This document shows positions 10,779-18,721 of a stretch of DNA of 64,000 nt, piece after piece. Every line of letters starts with the position of its first letter. Position 1 is the first letter of the stretch. The notes beneath the pieces are model-generated. The model was not told where the DNA came from. It made no database searches and worked only from the letters and a program-made list of their open reading frames with translations. The position numbers were made by a program, and so were the translations under genes. Source of the DNA: Escherichia coli (GTDB lineage: Bacteria > Pseudomonadota > Gammaproteobacteria > Enterobacterales > Enterobacteriaceae); the NCBI RefSeq assembly GCF_024502345.1, contig NZ_JALDNN010000002.1; one strand, written 5' to 3'.

Positions 10779-12217
10779 ACTTTCAGGGCGCGTGGTTCCT
10801 TTTAAACACCAGCTCTGTATCTCTTTTAAAGATCCTTTAATAAATTCTGTAAACCCATAACCTGTTCATCGCCTGCATTGTGGACCGGCTCGGGAGAATG
10901 CCCGCCCTTGCAGCGACCAGACGGTCGCGCCGGTTCGGCAACACCAGAGAGAGCTCCCATCGCTTCGCGACGGGCCCCGACCGGAGAACCAAATTAGTTA
11001 CAGCATTCATAAGGAAGCTCATCATAAAACCAGCGCCGGTTTGCCGGCCAGGTGCCCCTCCCCACCACTGAAAAGCGCCGCCGCCCCCGGCCGAAGGCCG
11101 GGGAACACCATCGCTTATAATGATGGGTGTTGTAACTAACCTTCTTCATCGCTTTAGGTGGAGCTGCGGTGAGTTTCTGAGTACACGCTCGTAAGCGGCC
11201 CTGACGGCCCGCTAACGCGGAGATACGCCACGGCTACGGCTTACGCCTTGCCGTGACCACTCCGACCGCGTACAGAGGCATCTGAGACGTTTTTAGCGGG
11301 TATAGCTTTGCAGCTACCGTGTTAAGTTCCCTGGTGTCGCTGAGATAGTTGATGAACATCCCCCTAAGCGTCAGCAGCAAGCTGCCGCCGCTAAGGCCCC
11401 GGAAATCACGCCCTTTACGTCGTAAACGCCGTAAAGCCCGCTCACCGGGGTTAAAAGGGATTACTTTGACTTCTTCATTGCTGTTAGCGGGTTAAGGCTA
11501 ATCAGGGCAGGGGGTAGGGTGGCAGAATTTATAGCCCGGCAACCGGCTACGCCGGGCTTTCGGCGCCATTTGACTCCACAGACACATGTAACCTCATCTG
11601 GCGCCTCCATGCCGCTGACGCGGCATCCAGAAGTTTCCCGATGCTGTAAGTCTTAACGTCTGCTTTGTGCCAAAAGCGGAAGTAACTAACAGCAGTCTGT
11701 GTGAAAATACGGGGAGCAGGTTAAAGGTGCCTGGCCGTTGTTGAGGTGGAGTTGCAGGGCCGCACCTTCTATATCCTAGAAGTCGATACATCTGACGGTG
11801 TTTGTTCTCTATCAACTTTGCTATTACGGCTGAAGTCGCCTCTGGATTGGCCCAAGCAGCTTACGCTGTTGGCAGAAGAGTTAACCCAGAAATCACTGCA
11901 CTGGCCAAATCAGCGGTTAAAAATGCTCTGCGGCAAGGATGGCTATTCCGGCATTCCTCACCCGCAGACCAAATCCGTGGATAAGGGCAAGTTGCATGAG
12001 GAGTCGATAGAGCACTGGGCGGCAAGATTTCACAGTTGGATGACATCAATCTAACGTATTGAAGAGATTTAATACAAGACGAACTATGTCTACGTTTGAG
12101 GCTTTATATCTTGTTGTTATAGTAAAGATGGTGCATGATTGTAATCAATTTGATGATAACAATAGCGCTATATGGATCACATCACTACATTCTCCTTTCA
12201 TTTCATAGCTGCGGCAC
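10779..12217. other. ORF-poor, GC-rich, hairpin-rich 1.4 kb segment upstream of the WYL regulator gene
   Basis: No ORF over 102 aa on either strand; multiple GC-rich stem-loops (for example AGCCCGGCAACCGGCTACGCCGGGCT). Confidence 0.5.
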
Positions 12218-13126
12218 ATGATTAGTTCTCCCTCTAAACGGGTCGAGGATTTGAGCCTTGCCCAGCGCGAGCGGCTGGCCTACATCGACTTCCAGCTCTA
12301 CTTCTTCGGTGATATTGGGCGCCCAGACCTGATTGAGCGCTTCGGTGTGGCGCCGGCAGGGGCAACTCGCGATCTGGCTCTTTACCGGGAAATCGCACCG
12401 CAGAACATTGAATTCGATGGTAGCAACAAGATCTACCGCATAGGCAAGGCGTTTGTTCCAATTTTCGAGCACTCGACGCAACGTGTTTTGTCGACATTCG
12501 CGCTTGGGTTTGGAGATGGTGTGAACGTCGACTCGCGGCCGCTGCTGCCATGCGAGTCTCCAGTGGCTTTGAGCTGCCCACGGATGGATGTGCTGGCCCC
12601 AATCTGCCGGGCTATCCACGCCAAGCGGCCAGTAGCCATCCGCTACCACTCAATGAGCAGCGGTGAGACCGAGCGGATCATTGTGCCCTTTGCGCTGGTC
12701 GATACCGGCCTGCGCTGGCACGTCCGAGCTTTTGATCGCAAGAGTGGCGAGTTCCGCGACTTCGTTGTCACCCGCATTGAAGCGCCTATCCTGCTTGATG
12801 AAGAACCCAAGGCTAACGAGCGTTCGGACAACGACATTCAGTGGACTCGGATCGTGGAGTTGGACTTAGTGCCTCATCCGCGCTTTGCGCGTCCCGAGGT
12901 CATCAAGATGGACTACGGGATGACCAACGGGTCGATCAAGATGCGCGTGCGGGCTGCTGTTGCGGGCTACATGCTGCTGCACTGGAGCGTGGACTGCTCG
13001 CCTGACCATCGCCTCAAAGAAGAACAGTATCGCCTATGGCTTAGCGATCCGCTGGTGCTGTACGGAGTCGAGAGCGCCAAGCTGGCTCCAGGATACCAAG
13101 CCCTGAGCAGTTCCAAGGGATCATAG
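12218..13126 (+). CDS. WYL-domain transcriptional regulator, BrxR/CapW-like (wHTH + WYL + C-terminal extension)
   Basis: N-terminal wHTH-like segment LAQRERLAYIDFQLYFFGDIGRPDLIERFGV; WYL-like core VAIRYHSMSSGETERIIVPFALVDTGLRWHVRAFDRKSGEFRDFVVTRI; 302 aa, typical BrxR size. Confidence 0.7.
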   Translation: MISSPSKRVEDLSLAQRERLAYIDFQLYFFGDIGRPDLIERFGVAPAGATRDLALYREIAPQNIEFDGSNKIYRIGKAFVPIFEHSTQRVLSTFALGFGDGVNVDSRPLLPCESPVALSCPRMDVLAPICRAIHAKRPVAIRYHSMSSGETERIIVPFALVDTGLRWHVRAFDRKSGEFRDFVVTRIEAPILLDEEPKANERSDNDIQWTRIVELDLVPHPRFARPEVIKMDYGMTNGSIKMRVRAAVAGYMLLHWSVDCSPDHRLKEEQYRLWLSDPLVLYGVESAKLAPGYQALSSSKGS

Positions 13127-13140
13127 GAAAGAGGAAAACA

Positions 13141-14871
13141 ATGGCCAAGACACTTGAAGCCCACGACAAACTGATCCGCGAGATCTTCGAAGGCAGCTAC
13201 CAGTTCGAGATTCCGGACTACCAGCGTCCCTATGCCTGGACAACCGAGCAGGCCACAGAGCTGTTCGATGATCTGCACTCGGCGATGCTGGATGCGCGTG
13301 TCTCCGGTGCAACCAGCCAATACTTCCTCGGCAGTATCGTTCTGATCAAGAACGACCGAGAGCCCAAATCGTCGGTGGTCGATGGCCAGCAGCGCCTGTC
13401 GACGCTGACGATGCTGTTTGCAGTGCTGCGCGAGGCCATGCCGCACGCAGCCGACGACATCACCGATTTCCTCTACAAGAAGGGCAAGGTCAGCCTCGGC
13501 GAGAAAAATGAATACCGCCTGACCGCCCGCGAGGAGGATGTCGACTTCTTTCGCACCAACATTCAAGAGCCGGGCGGCATCGCACAGTTGGTCACTAGCA
13601 CCGACAAGCTGGAAGACAGCCGACTTCGATACCGCGAAAACGCCATGCTGCTGCTTGCCAAAGCCAAGGCGCTACCGCCCGCCGATCTGATCGCACTGTG
13701 GCAGTTCCTGGCCAACAACTGCTCGCTGGTTGTTATCTCCACGCCCGATCTTGAAGCTGCCTACCGCATCTTTTCCGTGCTCAATAATCGGGGGCTTGAC
13801 CTCGCGCCTATCGACATCATCAAGGCGCAGGTTCTGGGCCTAATCCGCACCACGGCAGGCGACATTAAGAGTCGGGTCTATGCCAAGGAGTGGAGTCGCA
13901 TCGAAACCTCACTGGGCCGTGACGCCTTTGGTGATCTGTTCGGTCACATCCGTAGCATCTATGCGAAGAAGAAGCAGAAGTACATTTTGGTCAAGGAATT
14001 CCAAGAGCACGTCACCGAGTACAATAACCCTATCGCCCTGATCGACTCCGTCATCAAACCTTATGCAGAAGTATGGGACTTCGTGCGCGACGCTGACTTT
14101 GAGGCGACCGAGCACGCCGAGACGATCAACGAGCACCTGTTCTGGCTCAACCGCGTGGACTTTAAGGACTGGGTACCCCCGGCACTGGTGTATTTCAAGC
14201 GATTCCGGCAAAAACCAAAATTGCTCGCAGAATTCTTCGAATCACTAGAACGCCTTACCTATTTCATGTTGGTCACAAAGGTGGGTATCAACGAACGCAT
14301 CGAAACCTACGCTGCGCTCATTAAAGACATCGAGTCCACAGCCTTCGACGGCGCTCTAGTCACCTTGGGCACTCTGGCACTTACAGACAAACAGAAGCGA
14401 GATTTCGTGGCTGCTCTCGACGGAGATATCTACCGCAACCTGCCCAAAGCCCGCATGGCACTGGTTTTACGTCTCGAATCTCTGGTTCGAGCCCCTGGAG
14501 TGCAGCTGCAAAACGCCGTGTCGCTGGAGCATGTGCTGCCGCAAAACCCGCCTGACGGTTCGGACTGGATCAAGTGGTTCCCGGATGAAGACGAGCGAGA
14601 TTGCTGGACGCACCGTTTGGCCAATCTAGTTCCGCTGGATAGGAACAAGAACTCATCTGCCAGCAACTACGACTTTTCCAAGAAGAAGGATGCCTACTTC
14701 AGGGGTAAGGGCAAGGCGTCTCCCTTCGTGCTAACGCAGGAAGTTAGGTCAGAAAACGAGTGGACACCCAACCTTCTGGCTGAGCGTCAGAAACGCCTGA
14801 TGGGAGAACTCAAAAATCATTGGAAACTCGCCGTCACCACAGACAATGCCAGCGCCTCAGCGGCGAATTAA
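13141..14871 (+). CDS. GmrSD-family (DUF262 + DUF1524) putative type IV, modification-dependent restriction endonuclease, BrxU/SspE-like
   Basis: N-terminal DUF262 motifs (EIPDYQRPYAWT, DGQQRLST); C-terminal DUF1524 His-Me finger-like motifs (VSLEHVLPQNP, HRLANLVPLDRNKN); 15 bp downstream of the WYL regulator. Confidence 0.75.
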   Translation: MAKTLEAHDKLIREIFEGSYQFEIPDYQRPYAWTTEQATELFDDLHSAMLDARVSGATSQYFLGSIVLIKNDREPKSSVVDGQQRLSTLTMLFAVLREAMPHAADDITDFLYKKGKVSLGEKNEYRLTAREEDVDFFRTNIQEPGGIAQLVTSTDKLEDSRLRYRENAMLLLAKAKALPPADLIALWQFLANNCSLVVISTPDLEAAYRIFSVLNNRGLDLAPIDIIKAQVLGLIRTTAGDIKSRVYAKEWSRIETSLGRDAFGDLFGHIRSIYAKKKQKYILVKEFQEHVTEYNNPIALIDSVIKPYAEVWDFVRDADFEATEHAETINEHLFWLNRVDFKDWVPPALVYFKRFRQKPKLLAEFFESLERLTYFMLVTKVGINERIETYAALIKDIESTAFDGALVTLGTLALTDKQKRDFVAALDGDIYRNLPKARMALVLRLESLVRAPGVQLQNAVSLEHVLPQNPPDGSDWIKWFPDEDERDCWTHRLANLVPLDRNKNSSASNYDFSKKKDAYFRGKGKASPFVLTQEVRSENEWTPNLLAERQKRLMGELKNHWKLAVTTDNASASAAN

Positions 14872-14882
14872 GGTAAGTATCG

Positions 14883-15598
14883 ATGCATAAGAAGCAACAA
14901 CAAGACCAAAGCCAGATCAAGTGGATTTCCGATTTCATCTGGAACATTGCCGATGACCGCTTGCGCGACGTCTATGTACGCGGCAAGTACCGCGACGTGA
15001 TCCTGCCCTTCACCGTACTGCGACGGCTTGATGCCGTGCTAGAGACGACGAAGGATGCTGTGCTAGAGCGCAAGAAGCTCCTTGATGCCCATAAAGTGGT
15101 CGAGCAGGACGGCGCTCTGCGTATGGCAGCAGGCCAAGCCTTCTACAACGTATCGGAATTTACTCTGGCCAAGCTCAAGGCCAGTGCCGCAGGCCAGCGG
15201 CTGCGTGATGATTTTATTGCGTATCTGGATGGATTTTCGCCCAACGTCCAGGAAATCCTCACCAAGTTCAGTTTTCACAACCAGATCCAGAAGTTGGTGG
15301 ATTCGCACGTTCTGGGCTATTTGATAGAAGATTTCCTCGACCCGGAGGTCAATCTCTCGCCGTTGCCGGTTAAGGATGCCGACGGCCGCATCAAGCTGCC
15401 GCCGCTGGACAACCATGGCATGGGCACGGTGTTCGAAGAGCTGATCCGCCGCTTTAACGAAGACAACAACGAAGAGGCTGGTGAGCACTTCACACCGCGC
15501 GATGTGGTGAAGCTCATGGCCAAGCTACTGTTCCTGCCTGTGGCCGAGCGCATCGAGTCTAGCACCTATTCGCTCTACGATGGCTCCTGTGGCACAGG
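14883..15598 (+). pseudogene. hsdM: Type I restriction-modification methyltransferase HsdM, N-terminal about 238 codons only, truncated by IS911
   Basis: HsdM_N-like start and N6-methylase motif GEHFTPRDVVKLM; reading frame runs into the IS911 terminus at 15599. Confidence 0.7.
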
Positions 15599-15933
15599 TG
15601 AAGTGGCACACTGAATTTGGCCACCTGAACAGAGGTGATATGCTCACCTCAGAACAACACAGGTGCTCCAATGAAAAAAAGAAATTTCAGCGCAGAGTTT
15701 AAACGCGAATCCGCTCAACTGGTTGTTGACCAGAACTACACGGTGGCAGATGCCGCCAAAGCTATGGATGTTGGCCTTTCCACAATGACAAGATGGGTCA
15801 AACAACTGCGTGATGAGCGTCAGGGCAAAACACCAAAAGCCTCTCCGATAACACCAGAACAAATCGAAATACGTGAGCTGAGGAAAAAGCTACAACGCAT
15901 TGAAATGGAGAATGAAATATTAAAAAAGGCTAC
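15599..15933 (+). mobile_element. IS911 (IS3 family) left end fragment with orfA truncated at its frameshift site
   Basis: IRL TGAAGTGGCACACTGAATTTGG; Orf[24 protein letters not shown]... ends at ..EILKKA where IS30 begins. Confidence 0.85.
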
Positions 15934-17154
15934 TGTAGATTCAATTGGTCAACGCAACAGTTATGTGAAAACATGGGGTTGCGGAGGTTTTTTGAATGAG
16001 ACGAACATTTACAGCAGAGGAAAAAGCCTCTGTTTTTGAACTATGGAAGAACGGAACAGGCTTCAGTGAAATAGCGAATATCCTGGGTTCAAAACCCGGA
16101 ACGATCTTCACTATGTTAAGGGATACTGGCGGCATAAAACCCCATGAGCGTAAGCGGGCTGTAGCTCACCTGACACTGTCTGAGCGCGAGGAGATACGAG
16201 CTGGTTTGTCAGCCAAAATGAGCATTCGTGCGATAGCTACTGCGCTGAATCGCAGTCCTTCGACGATCTCACGTGAAGTTCAGCGTAATCGGGGCAGACG
16301 CTATTACAAAGCTGTTGATGCTAATAACCGAGCCAACAGAATGGCGAAAAGGCCAAAACCGTGCTTACTGGATCAAAATTTACCATTGCGAAAGCTTGTT
16401 CTGGAAAAGCTGGAGATGAAATGGTCTCCAGAGCAAATATCAGGATGGTTAAGGCGAACAAAACCACGTCAAAAAACGCTGCGAATATCACCTGAGACAA
16501 TTTATAAAACGCTGTACTTTCGTAGCCGTGAAGCGCTACACCACCTGAATATACAGCATCTGCGACGGTCGCATAGCCTTCGCCATGGCAGGCGTCATAC
16601 CCGCAAAGGCGAAAGAGGTACGATTAACATAGTGAACGGAACACCAATTCACGAACGTTCCCGAAATATCGATAACAGACGCTCTCTGGGGCATTGGGAG
16701 GGCGATTTAGTCTCAGGTACAAAAAACTCTCATATAGCCACACTTGTAGACCGAAAATCACGTTATACGATCATCCTTAGACTCAGGGGCAAAGATTCTG
16801 TCTCAGTAAATCAGGCTCTTACCGACAAATTCCTGAGTTTACCGTCAGAACTCAGAAAATCACTGACATGGGACAGAGGAATGGAACTGGCCAGACATCT
16901 AGAATTTACTGTCAGCACCGGCGTTAAAGTTTACTTCTGCGATCCTCAGAGTCCTTGGCAGCGGGGAACAAATGAGAACACAAATGGGCTAATTCGGCAG
17001 TACTTTCCTAAAAAGACATGTCTTGCCCAATATACTCAACATGAACTAGATCTGGTTGCTGCTCAGCTAAACAACAGACCGAGAAAGACACTGAAGTTCA
17101 AAACACCGAAAGAGATAATTGAAAGGGGTGTTGCATTGACAGATTGAATCTACA
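15934..17154 (+). mobile_element. IS30 (1221 bp, complete)
   Basis: Terminal TGTAGATTCAATTGGTCAACG ... CATTGACAGATTGAATCTACA; 383-aa IS30 transposase. Confidence 0.92.
15996..17147 (+). CDS. IS30 transposase
   Basis: 383-aa ORF with HTH N-terminus and DDE core, matches IS30 Tnp. Confidence 0.92.
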
Positions 17155-17468
17155 GCGGCTTTTTTTAATATGTCCCGTTCGTCGGTAACCCGTTTCAGCT
17201 CTTTCTGGAGACGGCGGATCTCGGCCTGAGCATCTGACTGTTCTTTATTAGTGGAAGAATCCGGACCGTACTTCTTTATCCAGGCATAAAGGCTGTGGGT
17301 GGTGATATCGAGACGTGTTGCAACGCTGGAAACAGAATAACCGCGATCAACAACCTGTTTGACTGCTTCAGTTTTAAACTCTTCGGGATAACGCTTACCG
17401 CTCATGGGCACCTCTCTTTAAGCCATCTTAAATGACTCTGAGGTGTCTGTTAAACCCGTGGCGATTCA
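17155..17468 (-). mobile_element. IS3-family element fragment (left end plus 5' part of orfA)
   Basis: OrfA MSGKRYPEEFKTEAVKQVVDRGYSVSSVATRLDITTHSLYAWIKKYG... truncated at ..DILKKA by IS30; terminus TGAATCGCCACGGG. Confidence 0.75.
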
Positions 17469-17658
17469 TTCTTCCATAAGCTTCATGAGTGTAAGGGGAA
17501 GGTTATATTTACCATAGCATTCCTTGTCCGAACTGCCATGCGATGGTCCACCGGGGCAATGAGGCAAAGCCGTTGTCTGTGGAAGCACTACGCGGCATGA
17601 TGAGCGTCGCCAGTTGCACACCGGCAAAGACGTGAAACACTTTTAACCGGAGCCAGTC

Positions 17659-17937
17659 ATGCGCGTTGCCGAAAGCATCATCCTCGATGCCCTCACTCGC
17701 GGAGGATGCATCAAAACCTTTTACCGCATATCCTCACGGCAGGCTGCTGAATCGGCCACGCGGATACCTGAGGGGTATATTCTGGAGTCGCCCGGCGAGC
17801 CGGAAGATATTGTGCTCAGCCATGCGGACTTTCATGCACTGGAGAAGCAGCTGGAGCAGAAGGAAACCTGGGAGCAGGTGGTCGGTGTGACCTGTTTTGG
17901 TGGGGCAACCTGGCAGCTGAGAGCCGGGTCCGTGTGA
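17659..17937 (+). CDS. Hypothetical protein (92 aa)
   Basis: ORF only; no recognisable family. Confidence 0.25.
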   Translation: MRVAESIILDALTRGGCIKTFYRISSRQAAESATRIPEGYILESPGEPEDIVLSHADFHALEKQLEQKETWEQVVGVTCFGGATWQLRAGSV

Positions 17938-18199: not shown

Positions 18200-18721
18200 T
18201 TAGTGGCGGATCTGCGCCAGGTCGTCTTCCGTCAGGCCGGTCATTTTCATAACGGTATTGCGGTCAATGCCGTTATGCAGCATGGTGCGGGCAATTTTCA
18301 GAGTGGCCTGACGCTCACCTTCTGAACGGCCCTTTTCAATACCCCGTTGTTCACCGAGCTGGATGCCCTGCTCAATCCCCTTCTGGATACCCTTCTGCTC
18401 AAGCTGTTGTGCGATGGTCATGAGTGCGTCTCCGTGTTGCGGCACACGCTGTGCCAGTTCGCGTACAAAGGCTTCGGCGTCAGCTGTCTCGCCTGCCTGG
18501 AGTATATAGTGTACCAGCGATATGACCTGGGATGAAGACAGATAGCCGGCCAGCAAAATGGGCGCCAGCCGGTCAACCAGTTCAGCGAGGTCGCGCTGGT
18601 GAATATGTTTCTGCAGTAAGGTCAGAGCGGCCATACTGCGGTGGCCGGCGATGTCATCATCCGGAATAACGGTCACATCAACCAGCGGGAAAGCGCCGCT
18701 GTAGAGTGTGCCTGCCAGCGC
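18200..18721 (-). pseudogene. Rpn-family (YhgA-like, PD-(D/E)XK) recombination-promoting nuclease, C-terminal part only; N-terminus lost to IS1
   Basis: C-terminal signature ..QKGIQKGIEQGIQLGEQRGIEKGRSEGERQATLKIARTMLHNGIDRNTVMKMTGLTEDDLAQIRH; frame continues to the IS1 boundary. Confidence 0.65.

What the first reader, a model, noticed from the sequence alone, without database searches (positions are those of the whole stretch)
12218..15598. IS-decayed phage-defence island: WYL (BrxR-like) regulator, GmrSD-like DUF262/DUF1524 nuclease, truncated type I hsdM
Three co-directional, tightly spaced genes form a defence module. The first is a 302-aa wHTH-WYL regulator of the BrxR/CapW type. The second is a 576-aa protein with DUF262 (QRPYAWT, DGQQR) and DUF1524 (His-Me finger) motifs, the architecture of modification-dependent type IV nucleases such as GmrSD, SspE and BrxU. 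The third is the N-terminal about 238 codons of a type I methyltransferase (GEHFTPRDVV motif) cut off by IS911, itself interrupted by IS30. No hsdS or hsdR remains in the window, so the type I system is dead while the regulator-nuclease pair looks intact. BrxR-family regulators are established controllers of BREX and other islands; a BrxR-GmrSD-type I combination on an mcr/mrk plasmid is not a classic named system and could be a compact two-gene module.
Basis: partly seen in the sequence, partly recalled or inferred. Interest (0 to 1): 0.72.

Follow-up and report, generated by a model that had tools for sequence, protein, structure and literature searches.

The report
Decayed plasmid phage-defence operon remnant
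This is what is left of a five-gene anti-phage operon (a BrxR repressor, a DndI/GmrSD-type nuclease and a type I restriction system) after insertion sequences removed the restriction system; all its parts belong to known families, so it is an ordinary though well-preserved example.

Summary
Three co-directional genes lie at 12218-15598.

- **Regulator:** a 302-aa BrxR-family wHTH-WYL protein, matching the solved pEFER BrxR (7QFZ) at E 4e-87.
- **Nuclease:** a 576-aa DUF262/DUF1524 protein with its catalytic motifs intact.
- **hsdM remnant:** the first 239 codons of a 792-aa type I hsdM, cut by the left end of IS911 at 15599. No hsdS or hsdR is in the window.

Intact mcr-10 plasmids show the ancestor: TnsE relic, brxR, nuclease, hsdM, hsdS, hsdR, ISEc36, mcr-10.

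The interpretation needs three corrections.

1. BrxR plus nuclease is not a recurring two-gene unit. In 57 related genomic loci, BrxR was adjacent only where a type I system or its remnant followed. All nine evaluable homologues with no type I methyltransferase gene downstream lack it.
2. The nuclease family is a promiscuous single-gene add-on. It occurs with two type I families, with type III RM, with Qat, or alone.
3. Its nearest characterised relative is DndI (9JFL), not GmrSD or BrxU. "Modification-dependent type IV" is therefore an assumption.

A new detail is a conserved palindromic operator (TGTAATCAATTTGATGATA, 12140-12158) directly after a conserved promoter.

Verdict: a new member of known kinds, of modest interest.

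The parts
11746..12054 (+). C-terminal relic (102 codons) of a Tn7-like tnsE gene that travels with the cassette
   Evidence: Annotated as TnsE in near-identical plasmids. Precomputed Pfam TnsE_C hits on the same fragment in Aeromonas and Edwardsiella. Only fragments of this TnsE exist in the 5.8-billion-protein collection.
12111..12139 (+). Putative brxR promoter: -35 TTGTTG (12111-12116), 17-nt spacer, -10 CATGAT (12134-12139)
   Evidence: A TTG..-N17-CAT(A/G)AT arrangement is conserved at the same place in an alignment of 25 otherwise diverged upstream regions. The consensus scan proposed a different site, TTGAGG/TATAGT at 12096-12123. Inferred, not measured.
12140..12158 (.). Candidate BrxR operator: imperfect palindrome TGTAATCA-ATT-TGATGATA
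   Evidence: This is the only match in the 64-kb window, with 0.06 expected by chance. ATC and TGAT are invariant in 25 aligned upstream regions. The degenerate motif occurs exactly once, about 60-105 nt upstream of brxR, in 31 loci with an adjacent close BrxR, and has no other zero-mismatch hit in 1.3 Mb of loci. Its position just after the -10 matches the pEFER R-BOX arrangement (PMC9122601), although the sequence differs.
12218..13126 (+). brxR: 302-aa BrxR-family wHTH-WYL-CTD transcriptional repressor, intact
   Evidence: PDB 7QFZ (pEFER BrxR) at E 3.9e-87, residues 9-294 aligned to 7-293; CapW and Acinetobacter BrxR also hit. 49% identity to pEFER BrxR. Pfam WYL. Precomputed WHD_BrxR + WYL + BrxR_CTD on orthologues. 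One private substitution, L94F.
13141..14871 (+). 576-aa DUF262 (ParB-like NTPase) + DUF1524 (His-Me/HNH nuclease) protein, DndI/HEC-06-like, intact
   Evidence: Pfam GmrSD_N and GmrSD_C. PADLOC Orf5 (= DndI) model PDLC02686 at 3.4e-146 and HEC-06 at 9e-65, both full length. Identical to the protein of intact loci. Q28, R29, D81-G-Q-Q-R85, E463, H464 and N495 are invariant in 100 diverse homologues. AF2 model pLDDT 93.4. Best fold matches are DndI 9JFL, then SspE, then BrxU.
14883..15598 (+). hsdM pseudogene: first 239 of 792 codons, ending in AdoMet-binding motif I (..DGSCGTG)
   Evidence: tblastn residues 1-239 are 100% identical to the intact HsdM, then stop. Pfam shows HsdM_N plus only the start of N6_Mtase; the full protein has N6_Mtase 177-492. 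Junction read directly from the sequence.
15599..15933 (+). Left-end fragment of IS911 (IRL plus orfA up to the frameshift window)
   Evidence: The sequence starts TGAAGTGGCAC.. where hsdM homology ends. The OrfA fragment hits the IS3-family transposase model. Naming it IS911 rests on my recollection of the OrfA sequence.
15934..17154 (+). Complete IS30 (1221 bp)
   Evidence: Terminal inverted repeats TGTAGATTCAAT../..ATTGAATCTACA. 383-aa transposase, NF033563 at 3e-82. Annotated as IS30 in matching plasmids.
17155..17471 (-). Inverted left-end fragment of a different IS3-family element, abutting IS30
   Evidence: An orfA fragment on the minus strand hits the IS3 model at 1.5e-16. It has no similarity to ISEc36 of the intact plasmids. 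The whole composite 15599-17471 recurs at 99.0% in one piece in E. coli plasmid NZ_CP070072.

Best explanation
The region is the 5' remnant of a mobile five-gene defence operon: brxR, a DUF262/DUF1524 nuclease, then hsdM, hsdS and hsdR. The operon sits next to the IncFII replicon and, in intact relatives, next to mcr-10.

Shown: IS911/IS30-associated rearrangement removed everything after codon 239 of hsdM. There is therefore no type I methylation or restriction. The brxR gene, its promoter/operator region and the nuclease gene are unchanged.

Inferred mechanism: a BrxR dimer binds the palindrome at 12140-12158, directly after the -10 element, and represses its own promoter and the genes downstream. 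An unknown ligand of the WYL domain relieves repression. The nuclease acts as a self-sufficient single-protein defence. Its ParB-like DUF262 domain (DGQQR NTPase) reads a feature of DNA and gates the C-terminal His-Me nuclease (E463/H464). It most likely nicks or cuts invading DNA that carries, or lacks, some modification. The DNA feature it reads is not known. The family's many genomic contexts indicate that it does not need the type I system, so the remnant is probably a still-functional regulated one-enzyme defence.
For: - Identity of the parts.
- Ancestral operon in intact plasmids and in Aeromonas, Edwardsiella, Cardiobacterium and Nitrosomonas chromosomes.
- Loss of hsdM 3', hsdS and hsdR.
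- mcr-10/xerC/ISEc36 displaced by about 35 kb and inverted.
- Operator and promoter footprint. BrxR precedent for binding inverted repeats just after its promoter: PMC9122601.
- Autonomy of the nuclease. Among 35 evaluable GTDB loci it is followed by the long-HsdM type I system in 20, by a truncated one in 3, by another methyltransferase in 3, and by no such gene in 9. One of the three others, L030, is confirmed as a different type I family. The nine include loci beside type III RM, QatABCD and a DrmD-like helicase and beside housekeeping genes.
- Homologues at 42-67% identity are stand-alone genes.
- HEC-06, BrxU and Eco94GmrSD work as single proteins (bioRxiv 10.1101/2024.01.29.577857; PMC12373910).
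- The nuclease ORF stays intact in plasmids with independently truncated type I systems, for example the pKPX-1/NDM-1 group. It is therefore tolerated without the cognate methyltransferase.
Against: - No expression or phenotype data exist for this locus.
- The nuclease protein is identical to that of intact loci, so intactness may reflect recency only.
- The pair lies 1-2 kb from the essential repA/ori, and all decay comes from the resistance-gene side. Retention therefore needs no selection.
- The closest characterised relative, DndI, depends on a partner modification system to avoid self-damage (PMC11662687).
- TgvAB protects less well outside its type I cluster (PMC11411939).
- The operator is supported by conservation only.
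Confidence: 0.72

Rival explanations
1. Inert relic. The two intact genes are carried only because they sit beside the essential IncFII replicon. They are silent or irrelevant in the current hosts and will decay with time.
For: The position is 1-2 kb from repA in every plasmid examined, and all truncations come from the distal side. The nuclease is 100% identical and BrxR 99.7% identical to an intact locus, so there has been no time to test selection. One otherwise intact plasmid copy, CP096995, appears to have lost the DUF262 annotation, with a 1-nt shorter match.
Against: Two separately truncated plasmid groups (IS911 here; next to IS3000/NDM-1 in pKPX-1-type plasmids) both keep full-length brxR and nuclease ORFs. 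The promoter and operator are unchanged. Homologues function as single genes elsewhere.
Confidence: 0.25
2. BrxR plus the nuclease is a dedicated two-gene system, an evolutionary unit distinct from the type I genes.
For: The BrxR-nuclease pair (83-87% and 87-89% identical) precedes methyltransferase genes only 27-28% identical to the cognate HsdM in L025 and L030. In L030 these are confirmed as a different type I family. The pair has therefore recombined as a block. The 14-nt spacing is conserved.
Against: No intact pair was found without a type I system or its remnant downstream. All nine evaluable homologues with no type I methyltransferase gene downstream lack BrxR, and so do the stand-alone homologues at 42-67% identity. 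The nuclease with type I also occurs without an adjacent BrxR: in Xanthomonas, Castellaniella, L042, L062 and L063, and in Stenotrophomonas, where BrxR lies two genes further upstream. BrxR heads islands of varied content, for example BrxR-PsyrTA-nuclease-hsdMSR, as described for the family (PMC9122601).
Confidence: 0.1
3. DndI-like logic. The nuclease attacks DNA lacking the mark written by its neighbour (here m6A from HsdMS) and is restrained on marked self DNA. Without hsdM the remnant would be self-damaging and survive only under tight BrxR repression.
For: DndI is the nearest solved relative by profile (3e-47, full length) and by fold (TM 0.63). The best PADLOC model is Orf5 = DndI (PMC2978375). 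The gene lies immediately before hsdM in 26 of 35 evaluable loci. DndI is toxic without its partner modification (PMC11662687).
Against: Close homologues (71-90% identical) sit next to Qat, a DrmD-like helicase or housekeeping genes with no methyltransferase, and distant ones stand alone. HsdS specificity varies freely between loci while the nuclease stays 80-90% identical. Dozens of plasmids carry it with a dead hsdM.
Confidence: 0.07

Closest known systems
pEFER defence island of Escherichia fergusonii (BrxR - BREX - embedded BrxU)
   Same: A plasmid-borne operon headed by a BrxR-family WYL repressor (49% identical, full-length match to 7QFZ). It controls a methylation-based system plus a DUF262/DUF1524 nuclease. 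An inverted-repeat operator lies just after the promoter.
   Different: The partner here is type I RM, not BREX. The nuclease precedes the methyltransferase rather than being embedded. The operator sequence is unrelated. The nuclease is only marginally similar to BrxU (E 0.006). Here the partner system has been destroyed.
DndI (ORF5) of the Salmonella Cerro 87 dnd cluster, PDB 9JFL
   Same: It is the closest characterised relative of the 576-aa protein: profile E 3e-47 over the full length, top fold match at TM 0.63, and the PADLOC Orf5 model at 3e-146. It has the same DGQQR NTPase plus HNH layout.
   Different: Only 16-17% identity in the structural alignment. No dnd genes were seen beside this gene or the homologues examined. 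DndI needs phosphorothioate on self DNA, and nothing shows this protein senses phosphorothioate.
HEC-06 (Hma-embedded GmrSD-like defence, Payne et al. 2024 preprint)
   Same: A single-protein DUF262/DUF1524 defence, validated experimentally. It has the DGQQR and EH..P motifs whose mutation abolishes defence. PADLOC HEC-06 models hit full length (9e-65).
   Different: It is embedded in Hma rather than placed before type I RM. The score is lower than for the Orf5 model, so it belongs to a different subfamily.
TgvAB / RloF: GmrSD-like genes inside type I RM operons (V. cholerae VPI-2, C. jejuni)
   Same: A DUF262-family nuclease co-transcribed with hsdR/M/S, proposed to complement type I restriction.
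   Different: TgvAB needs two proteins and lies between hsd genes. This one is a single protein at the 5' end, has a BrxR regulator, and its family also occurs away from type I systems.

Membership tests
BrxR family of WYL transcriptional regulators | N-terminal winged HTH, central WYL domain and C-terminal dimerisation domain in about 300 aa | tested here: met
   Residues 9-294 align to 7-293 of 7QFZ at E 3.9e-87. Pfam WYL. WHD_BrxR + WYL + BrxR_CTD on orthologues.
BrxR family of WYL transcriptional regulators | Encoded at the head of, and co-directional with, a phage-defence system | tested here: met
   It precedes nuclease-hsdMSR in intact plasmids and chromosomes. It is adjacent in 23 of 48 evaluable loci.
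BrxR family of WYL transcriptional regulators | Inverted-repeat operator next to its own promoter | tested here: met
   Sequence level only. There is a conserved palindrome at 12140-12158 directly after a conserved -10 element.
BrxR family of WYL transcriptional regulators | Binds the operator as a dimer and represses transcription | not testable with these tools
   Needs EMSA and reporter assays.
GmrSD-like DUF262/DUF1524 nucleases (GmrSD, BrxU, SspE, DndI, HEC-06) | N-terminal DUF262 with QR, DGQQR and F..LN motifs | tested here: met
   GmrSD_N at 5.9e-38. Q28, R29 and D81-R85 are invariant, and F211 and N215 nearly invariant, in 100 homologues.
GmrSD-like DUF262/DUF1524 nucleases (GmrSD, BrxU, SspE, DndI, HEC-06) | C-terminal DUF1524 His-Me finger with (D/E)H ... 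N ... N | tested here: met
   GmrSD_C at 1.4e-22. E463, H464 and N495 are invariant; N504 and N509 are nearly so. The model has beta strands at 461-464 and 496-499 followed by a helix. Fold hits are DndI, SspE and BrxU.
Type IV (modification-dependent) restriction enzyme | Cleaves only modified DNA | not testable with these tools
   No biochemical data. The nearest relative, DndI, does not behave this way (PMC11662687), so membership is open.
DndI / PT-based defence | Encoded with dndBCDE (or ssp) phosphorothioation genes | tested here: not met
   The neighbours are brxR and hsdM in the window. No Dnd-family Pfam hit appears among called neighbours. The contexts found are type I, type III, Qat, DrmD-like or none.
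Type I restriction-modification system | Complete HsdM with the N6_Mtase catalytic domain | tested here: not met
   Only residues 1-239 of 792 remain, and N6_Mtase is matched for 58 of 311 model positions.
Type I restriction-modification system | hsdS and hsdR present | tested here: not met
   No tblastn hit in the 64-kb window.
Tn7-like transposon cargo | tnsABC(D/E) genes and element ends flanking the cargo | tested here: not met
   Only a 102-codon TnsE C-terminal relic is present. No full-length close TnsE exists in the collection.

The most novel reading that the evidence does not exclude
The nuclease generalises DndI logic from phosphorothioate to methylation. It uses the m6A pattern written by the adjacent HsdMS as a 'self' signal that switches it off, giving the operon two independent restriction arms that share one methyltransferase. 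In the window it would then be an unrestrained nuclease held in check only by BrxR.
Probability: 0.07. Interest if true: 0.7.

Novelty: new member of a known kind. Interest (0 to 1): 0.25.

Why it matters
The remnant sits on clinically important mcr-10 and NDM-type IncF plasmids of Klebsiella, Enterobacter and E. coli. A still-active BrxR-controlled nuclease could influence phage susceptibility, including therapeutic phages with modified DNA, and plasmid or phage traffic. The comparative data also give two usable results. One is a defined candidate operator for this BrxR clade. The other is evidence that this widespread DndI/HEC-06-like nuclease clade (889 clusters at 50% identity with E below 1e-30) is an autonomous add-on to many defence systems. 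None of this changes current concepts.

Tried and rejected
1. After seven lineages I concluded that the nuclease is always fused to the long-HsdM type I operon. The 57-locus genome scan overturned this.
2. I suspected the IS3-type fragment right of IS30 was ISEc36 from the ancestral hsdR-ISEc36-mcr-10 arrangement. blastn found no similarity, and ISEc36 is elsewhere in the window.
3. A search for an intact Tn7-like ancestor through the TnsE fragment found only fragments.
4. NCBIfam has no model for the regulator or the nuclease.
5. The first AlphaFold model, from an 18-sequence alignment, was unusable (pLDDT 52.8). It was replaced by a model from 100 sequences.
6. The pEFER R-BOX sequence does not occur here.
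7. No second operator copy was found in the window.
8. The PADLOC name 'Orf5' was traced through the literature to ORF5/DndI of the Salmonella dnd cluster.
Full report
**Observation.** The three co-directional ORFs are where the finding puts them.
- ORF 12218-13126 (302 aa) has a Pfam WYL domain.
- ORF 13141-14871 (576 aa) has GmrSD_N (DUF262, 5.9e-38) and GmrSD_C (DUF1524, 1.4e-22).
- ORF 14883-15614 has HsdM_N and only the first 58 model positions of N6_Mtase.
- The intergenic gaps are 14 and 11 nt, each with a Shine-Dalgarno-like sequence.

These matches are far beyond chance.

**The regulator.** It aligns end to end with the crystal-structure sequence of the E. fergusonii pEFER BrxR (7QFZ, E 3.9e-87, residues 9-294 against 7-293). 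It also matches CapW (9C5G, 6e-35) and Acinetobacter BrxR (7T8K, 5.5e-21). Identity to pEFER BrxR is 49%. Orthologues of the same length carry the precomputed Pfam families WHD_BrxR, WYL and BrxR_CTD. It is a BrxR-family member. Relative to all close relatives it has one private conservative change, L94F.

**The ancestral locus.** Near-identical DNA occurs in many Enterobacteriaceae plasmids. In intact copies such as pWL374-mcr-10 the order is as follows:
- IncFII repA and a TnsE C-terminal relic;
- brxR, the nuclease, hsdM (792 aa), hsdS (468 aa) and hsdR (1023 aa);
- ISEc36, mcr-10 and a xerC-type recombinase gene.

The same operon, again with the TnsE relic, lies in Aeromonas and Edwardsiella chromosomes at 97-99% protein identity. 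Only fragments of this TnsE exist in the large protein collection. The Tn7-like origin is therefore a fossil.

**The decay in this window.** Comparison with intact hsdM puts the break at 15598-15600, inside the AdoMet-binding motif DGSCGTG. The sequence continues as an IS3-family left end, TGAAGTGGCAC... HsdM residues 1-239 are 100% identical to the intact protein, and nothing of HsdS or HsdR is in the window.
- The IS911 fragment is 335 bp long.
- It is followed by a complete 1221-bp IS30 (15934-17154).
- Then comes an inverted fragment of a different IS3-family element, not the rest of IS911.
- The composite 15599-17471 recurs at 99% in an unrelated E. coli plasmid.

mcr-10, xerC and a truncated ISEc36 are in the window at 50736-55378. 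They are inverted and about 35 kb away relative to the intact arrangement.

**Other decay states in plasmids.** Among 102 plasmid records with the locus, 24 keep at least 80% of it. A large group (31 of the 60 rows shown, the pKPX-1/NDM-1 type) is cut near the 3' end of hsdM, next to IS3000-blaNDM-1. In these too, brxR and the nuclease gene are full length.

**The nuclease.** PADLOC places it full length in 'Orf5' (PDLC02686, 3.4e-146) and more weakly in HEC-06 (9e-65) and SspE. 'Orf5' is ORF5 of the Salmonella Cerro 87 dnd cluster (PMC2978375), since renamed DndI, with a solved structure (9JFL; PMC11662687).
- A profile of 100 diverse homologues matches DndI over its full length (E 3e-47) and SspE at 3e-28. 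It matches BrxU only at 0.006.
- A confident AlphaFold model (pLDDT 93.4) has DndI as its best fold match (TM 0.63), followed by SspE and BrxU.
- The catalytic signatures are invariant across the family and present here: Q28-R29, D81GQQR85, E463-H464 and N495. They correspond to residues whose mutation abolishes defence in HEC-06 and BrxU (bioRxiv 10.1101/2024.01.29.577857).

The architecture claim is therefore right. The label 'modification-dependent type IV' is not established. DndI nicks DNA regardless of modification and is released from self DNA by phosphorothioate. SspE is activated by phosphorothioate. GmrSD, BrxU and TgvAB cut modified cytosine DNA.

**Is BrxR plus nuclease a module?** Seven lineages first suggested a fixed nuclease-hsdMSR core. 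A scan of one genome per GTDB species returned 57 loci at 62-100% identity (best segment). I classified them with tblastn and ORF reading and with PADLOC.

Downstream context, in 35 loci evaluable on that side:

| Downstream of the nuclease | Loci |
|---|---|
| Long-HsdM type I system | 20 |
| Truncated remnant of it, like this window | 3 |
| A different methyltransferase (HsdM only 27-30% identical; L030 confirmed as another type I family) | 3 |
| No such gene | 9 |

- The nine with no such gene include loci after a type III mod/res pair, after QatABCD, next to a DrmD-like helicase, and beside purB or carboxylase genes.
- More distant homologues (42-67% identity) are stand-alone genes.
- BrxR is directly upstream in 23 of 48 evaluable loci. 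It is a fragment in 3, several kilobases upstream in 7, and absent in 15.
- Of the distant cases, the 55-56% identical copies lie about 6.5 kb upstream. In Stenotrophomonas the genes between BrxR and the nuclease are PsyrT and PsyrA.
- All nine loci with no type I methyltransferase gene downstream lack BrxR.

The nuclease is thus a mobile single-gene add-on that attaches to many defence systems. BrxR is a regulator that heads composite islands. The pair alone is not a recurring unit, although the pair has recombined as a block in front of two type I families.

This fits published surveys. BrxR homologues co-localise with type IV (17.6%) and type I (16.2%) restriction genes (PMC9122601). Type I RM domains are the most enriched neighbours of GmrSD homologues (PMC4619093). 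GmrSD-like genes are often embedded in type I loci (TgvAB, PMC11411939; Payne et al. preprint).

**Regulatory DNA.** An alignment of 25 brxR upstream regions, otherwise diverged, shows one sharply conserved block. It reads TTG..-N17-CAT(A/G)AT, followed at once by TGTCATCA-N3-TGATGATA.
- In the window this corresponds to -35 TTGTTG (12111-12116), -10 CATGAT (12134-12139) and the palindrome TGTAATCAATTTGATGATA (12140-12158).
- The palindrome is the only such site in 64 kb, with 0.06 expected by chance.
- The degenerate motif occurs exactly once, about 60-105 nt upstream of brxR, in 31 loci with a close adjacent BrxR. It has no other zero-mismatch hit in 1.3 Mb. The motif was derived from these sequences, so the informative part is its absence elsewhere.
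- The layout, an inverted repeat just after the -10, matches the experimentally defined pEFER R-BOX. The sequence is different (PMC9122601).

I infer autorepression by promoter occlusion. The signal sensed by the WYL domain is unknown.

**Function of the remnant.** I consider it most likely (about 0.6) that the window encodes a still-functional, BrxR-repressed, single-protein nuclease defence.
- For this: the promoter, operator and ORFs are unchanged. Relatives work as single genes. The family stands alone in many genomes. The gene is tolerated in plasmids with dead hsdM.
- Against: intactness may only reflect recency and physical linkage to repA, since all erosion comes from the resistance-gene side.
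- The DndI relationship keeps open a minority reading in which the nuclease needs the neighbour's methylation for self-restraint.

**Novelty.** All three components belong to described families, and the combination type has been reported. The exact locus is already present and annotated in more than a hundred public plasmids. The new elements are modest:
- the clade-specific operator;
- the placement of this nuclease nearer to DndI than to GmrSD or BrxU;
- the context census.

I rate it a new member of a known kind, with interest 0.25.

Noticed in passing
window 15599-17471: IS30 is flanked by inverted left-end fragments of two different IS3-family elements. Each is cut exactly at its programmed-frameshift A-run (TTAAAAAAGGCTAC|IS30|GCGGCTTTTTTTAA). 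The same composite occurs at 99% identity next to tsh in E. coli plasmid NZ_CP070072. This suggests that IS30 targets this site, or that the three-part unit moves as a whole.
   Followed up: partly
window 50736-55378: xerC-type recombinase, mcr-10 and ISEc36 are present but inverted and about 35 kb from the hsdM stump. In intact plasmids they follow hsdR directly. ISEc36 is itself truncated at 55378 by a resolvase/IS26 region.
   Followed up: partly
window 11746-12054: A TnsE C-terminal relic always accompanies the cassette in plasmids, Aeromonas and Edwardsiella. No full-length close TnsE was found anywhere, so the Tn7-like ancestor appears to be extinct or unsampled.
   Followed up: yes
L003 15602-16924 (Aeromonas), also L006: An extra 440-aa gene with no Pfam or PADLOC hit is embedded between hsdS and hsdR in the Aeromonas and Edwardsiella versions of the operon. 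It is absent from the plasmid version. By the 'guilt by embedding' argument it is a candidate unknown defence gene.
   Followed up: partly
L003 20015-21320; L010 16596-17719: A two-gene CBASS-like pair (2TM/SLATT effector plus CD-NTase cyclase) directly follows hsdR in Aeromonas and Cardiobacterium.
   Followed up: partly
L014 3538-16555 (Stenotrophomonas): A 55-56% identical BrxR heads a longer island: BrxR, PsyrT, PsyrA, nuclease, hsdM, hsdS, hsdR. L022, L027, L033, L035 and L037 also have a 55-56% identical BrxR about 6.5 kb upstream of the nuclease; the intervening genes were not checked there.
   Followed up: partly
L029, L035, L050, L067: Chromosomal or MAG loci in other phyla and classes also show an intact nuclease gene with a truncated hsdM (residues about 1-90 to 1-190). 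This parallels the decay seen in the window.
   Followed up: no
window 18200-18676 (-) and 17659-17937 (+): A C-terminal fragment of an Rpn-family recombination-promoting nuclease and a 92-aa ORF with no family hit lie between the IS composite and the next IS1.
   Followed up: no
plasmid CP096995 (hit H48): An otherwise intact copy of the operon lacks a DUF262 CDS in its annotation, and its match is 1 nt shorter. This may be a frameshifted nuclease gene.
   Followed up: no
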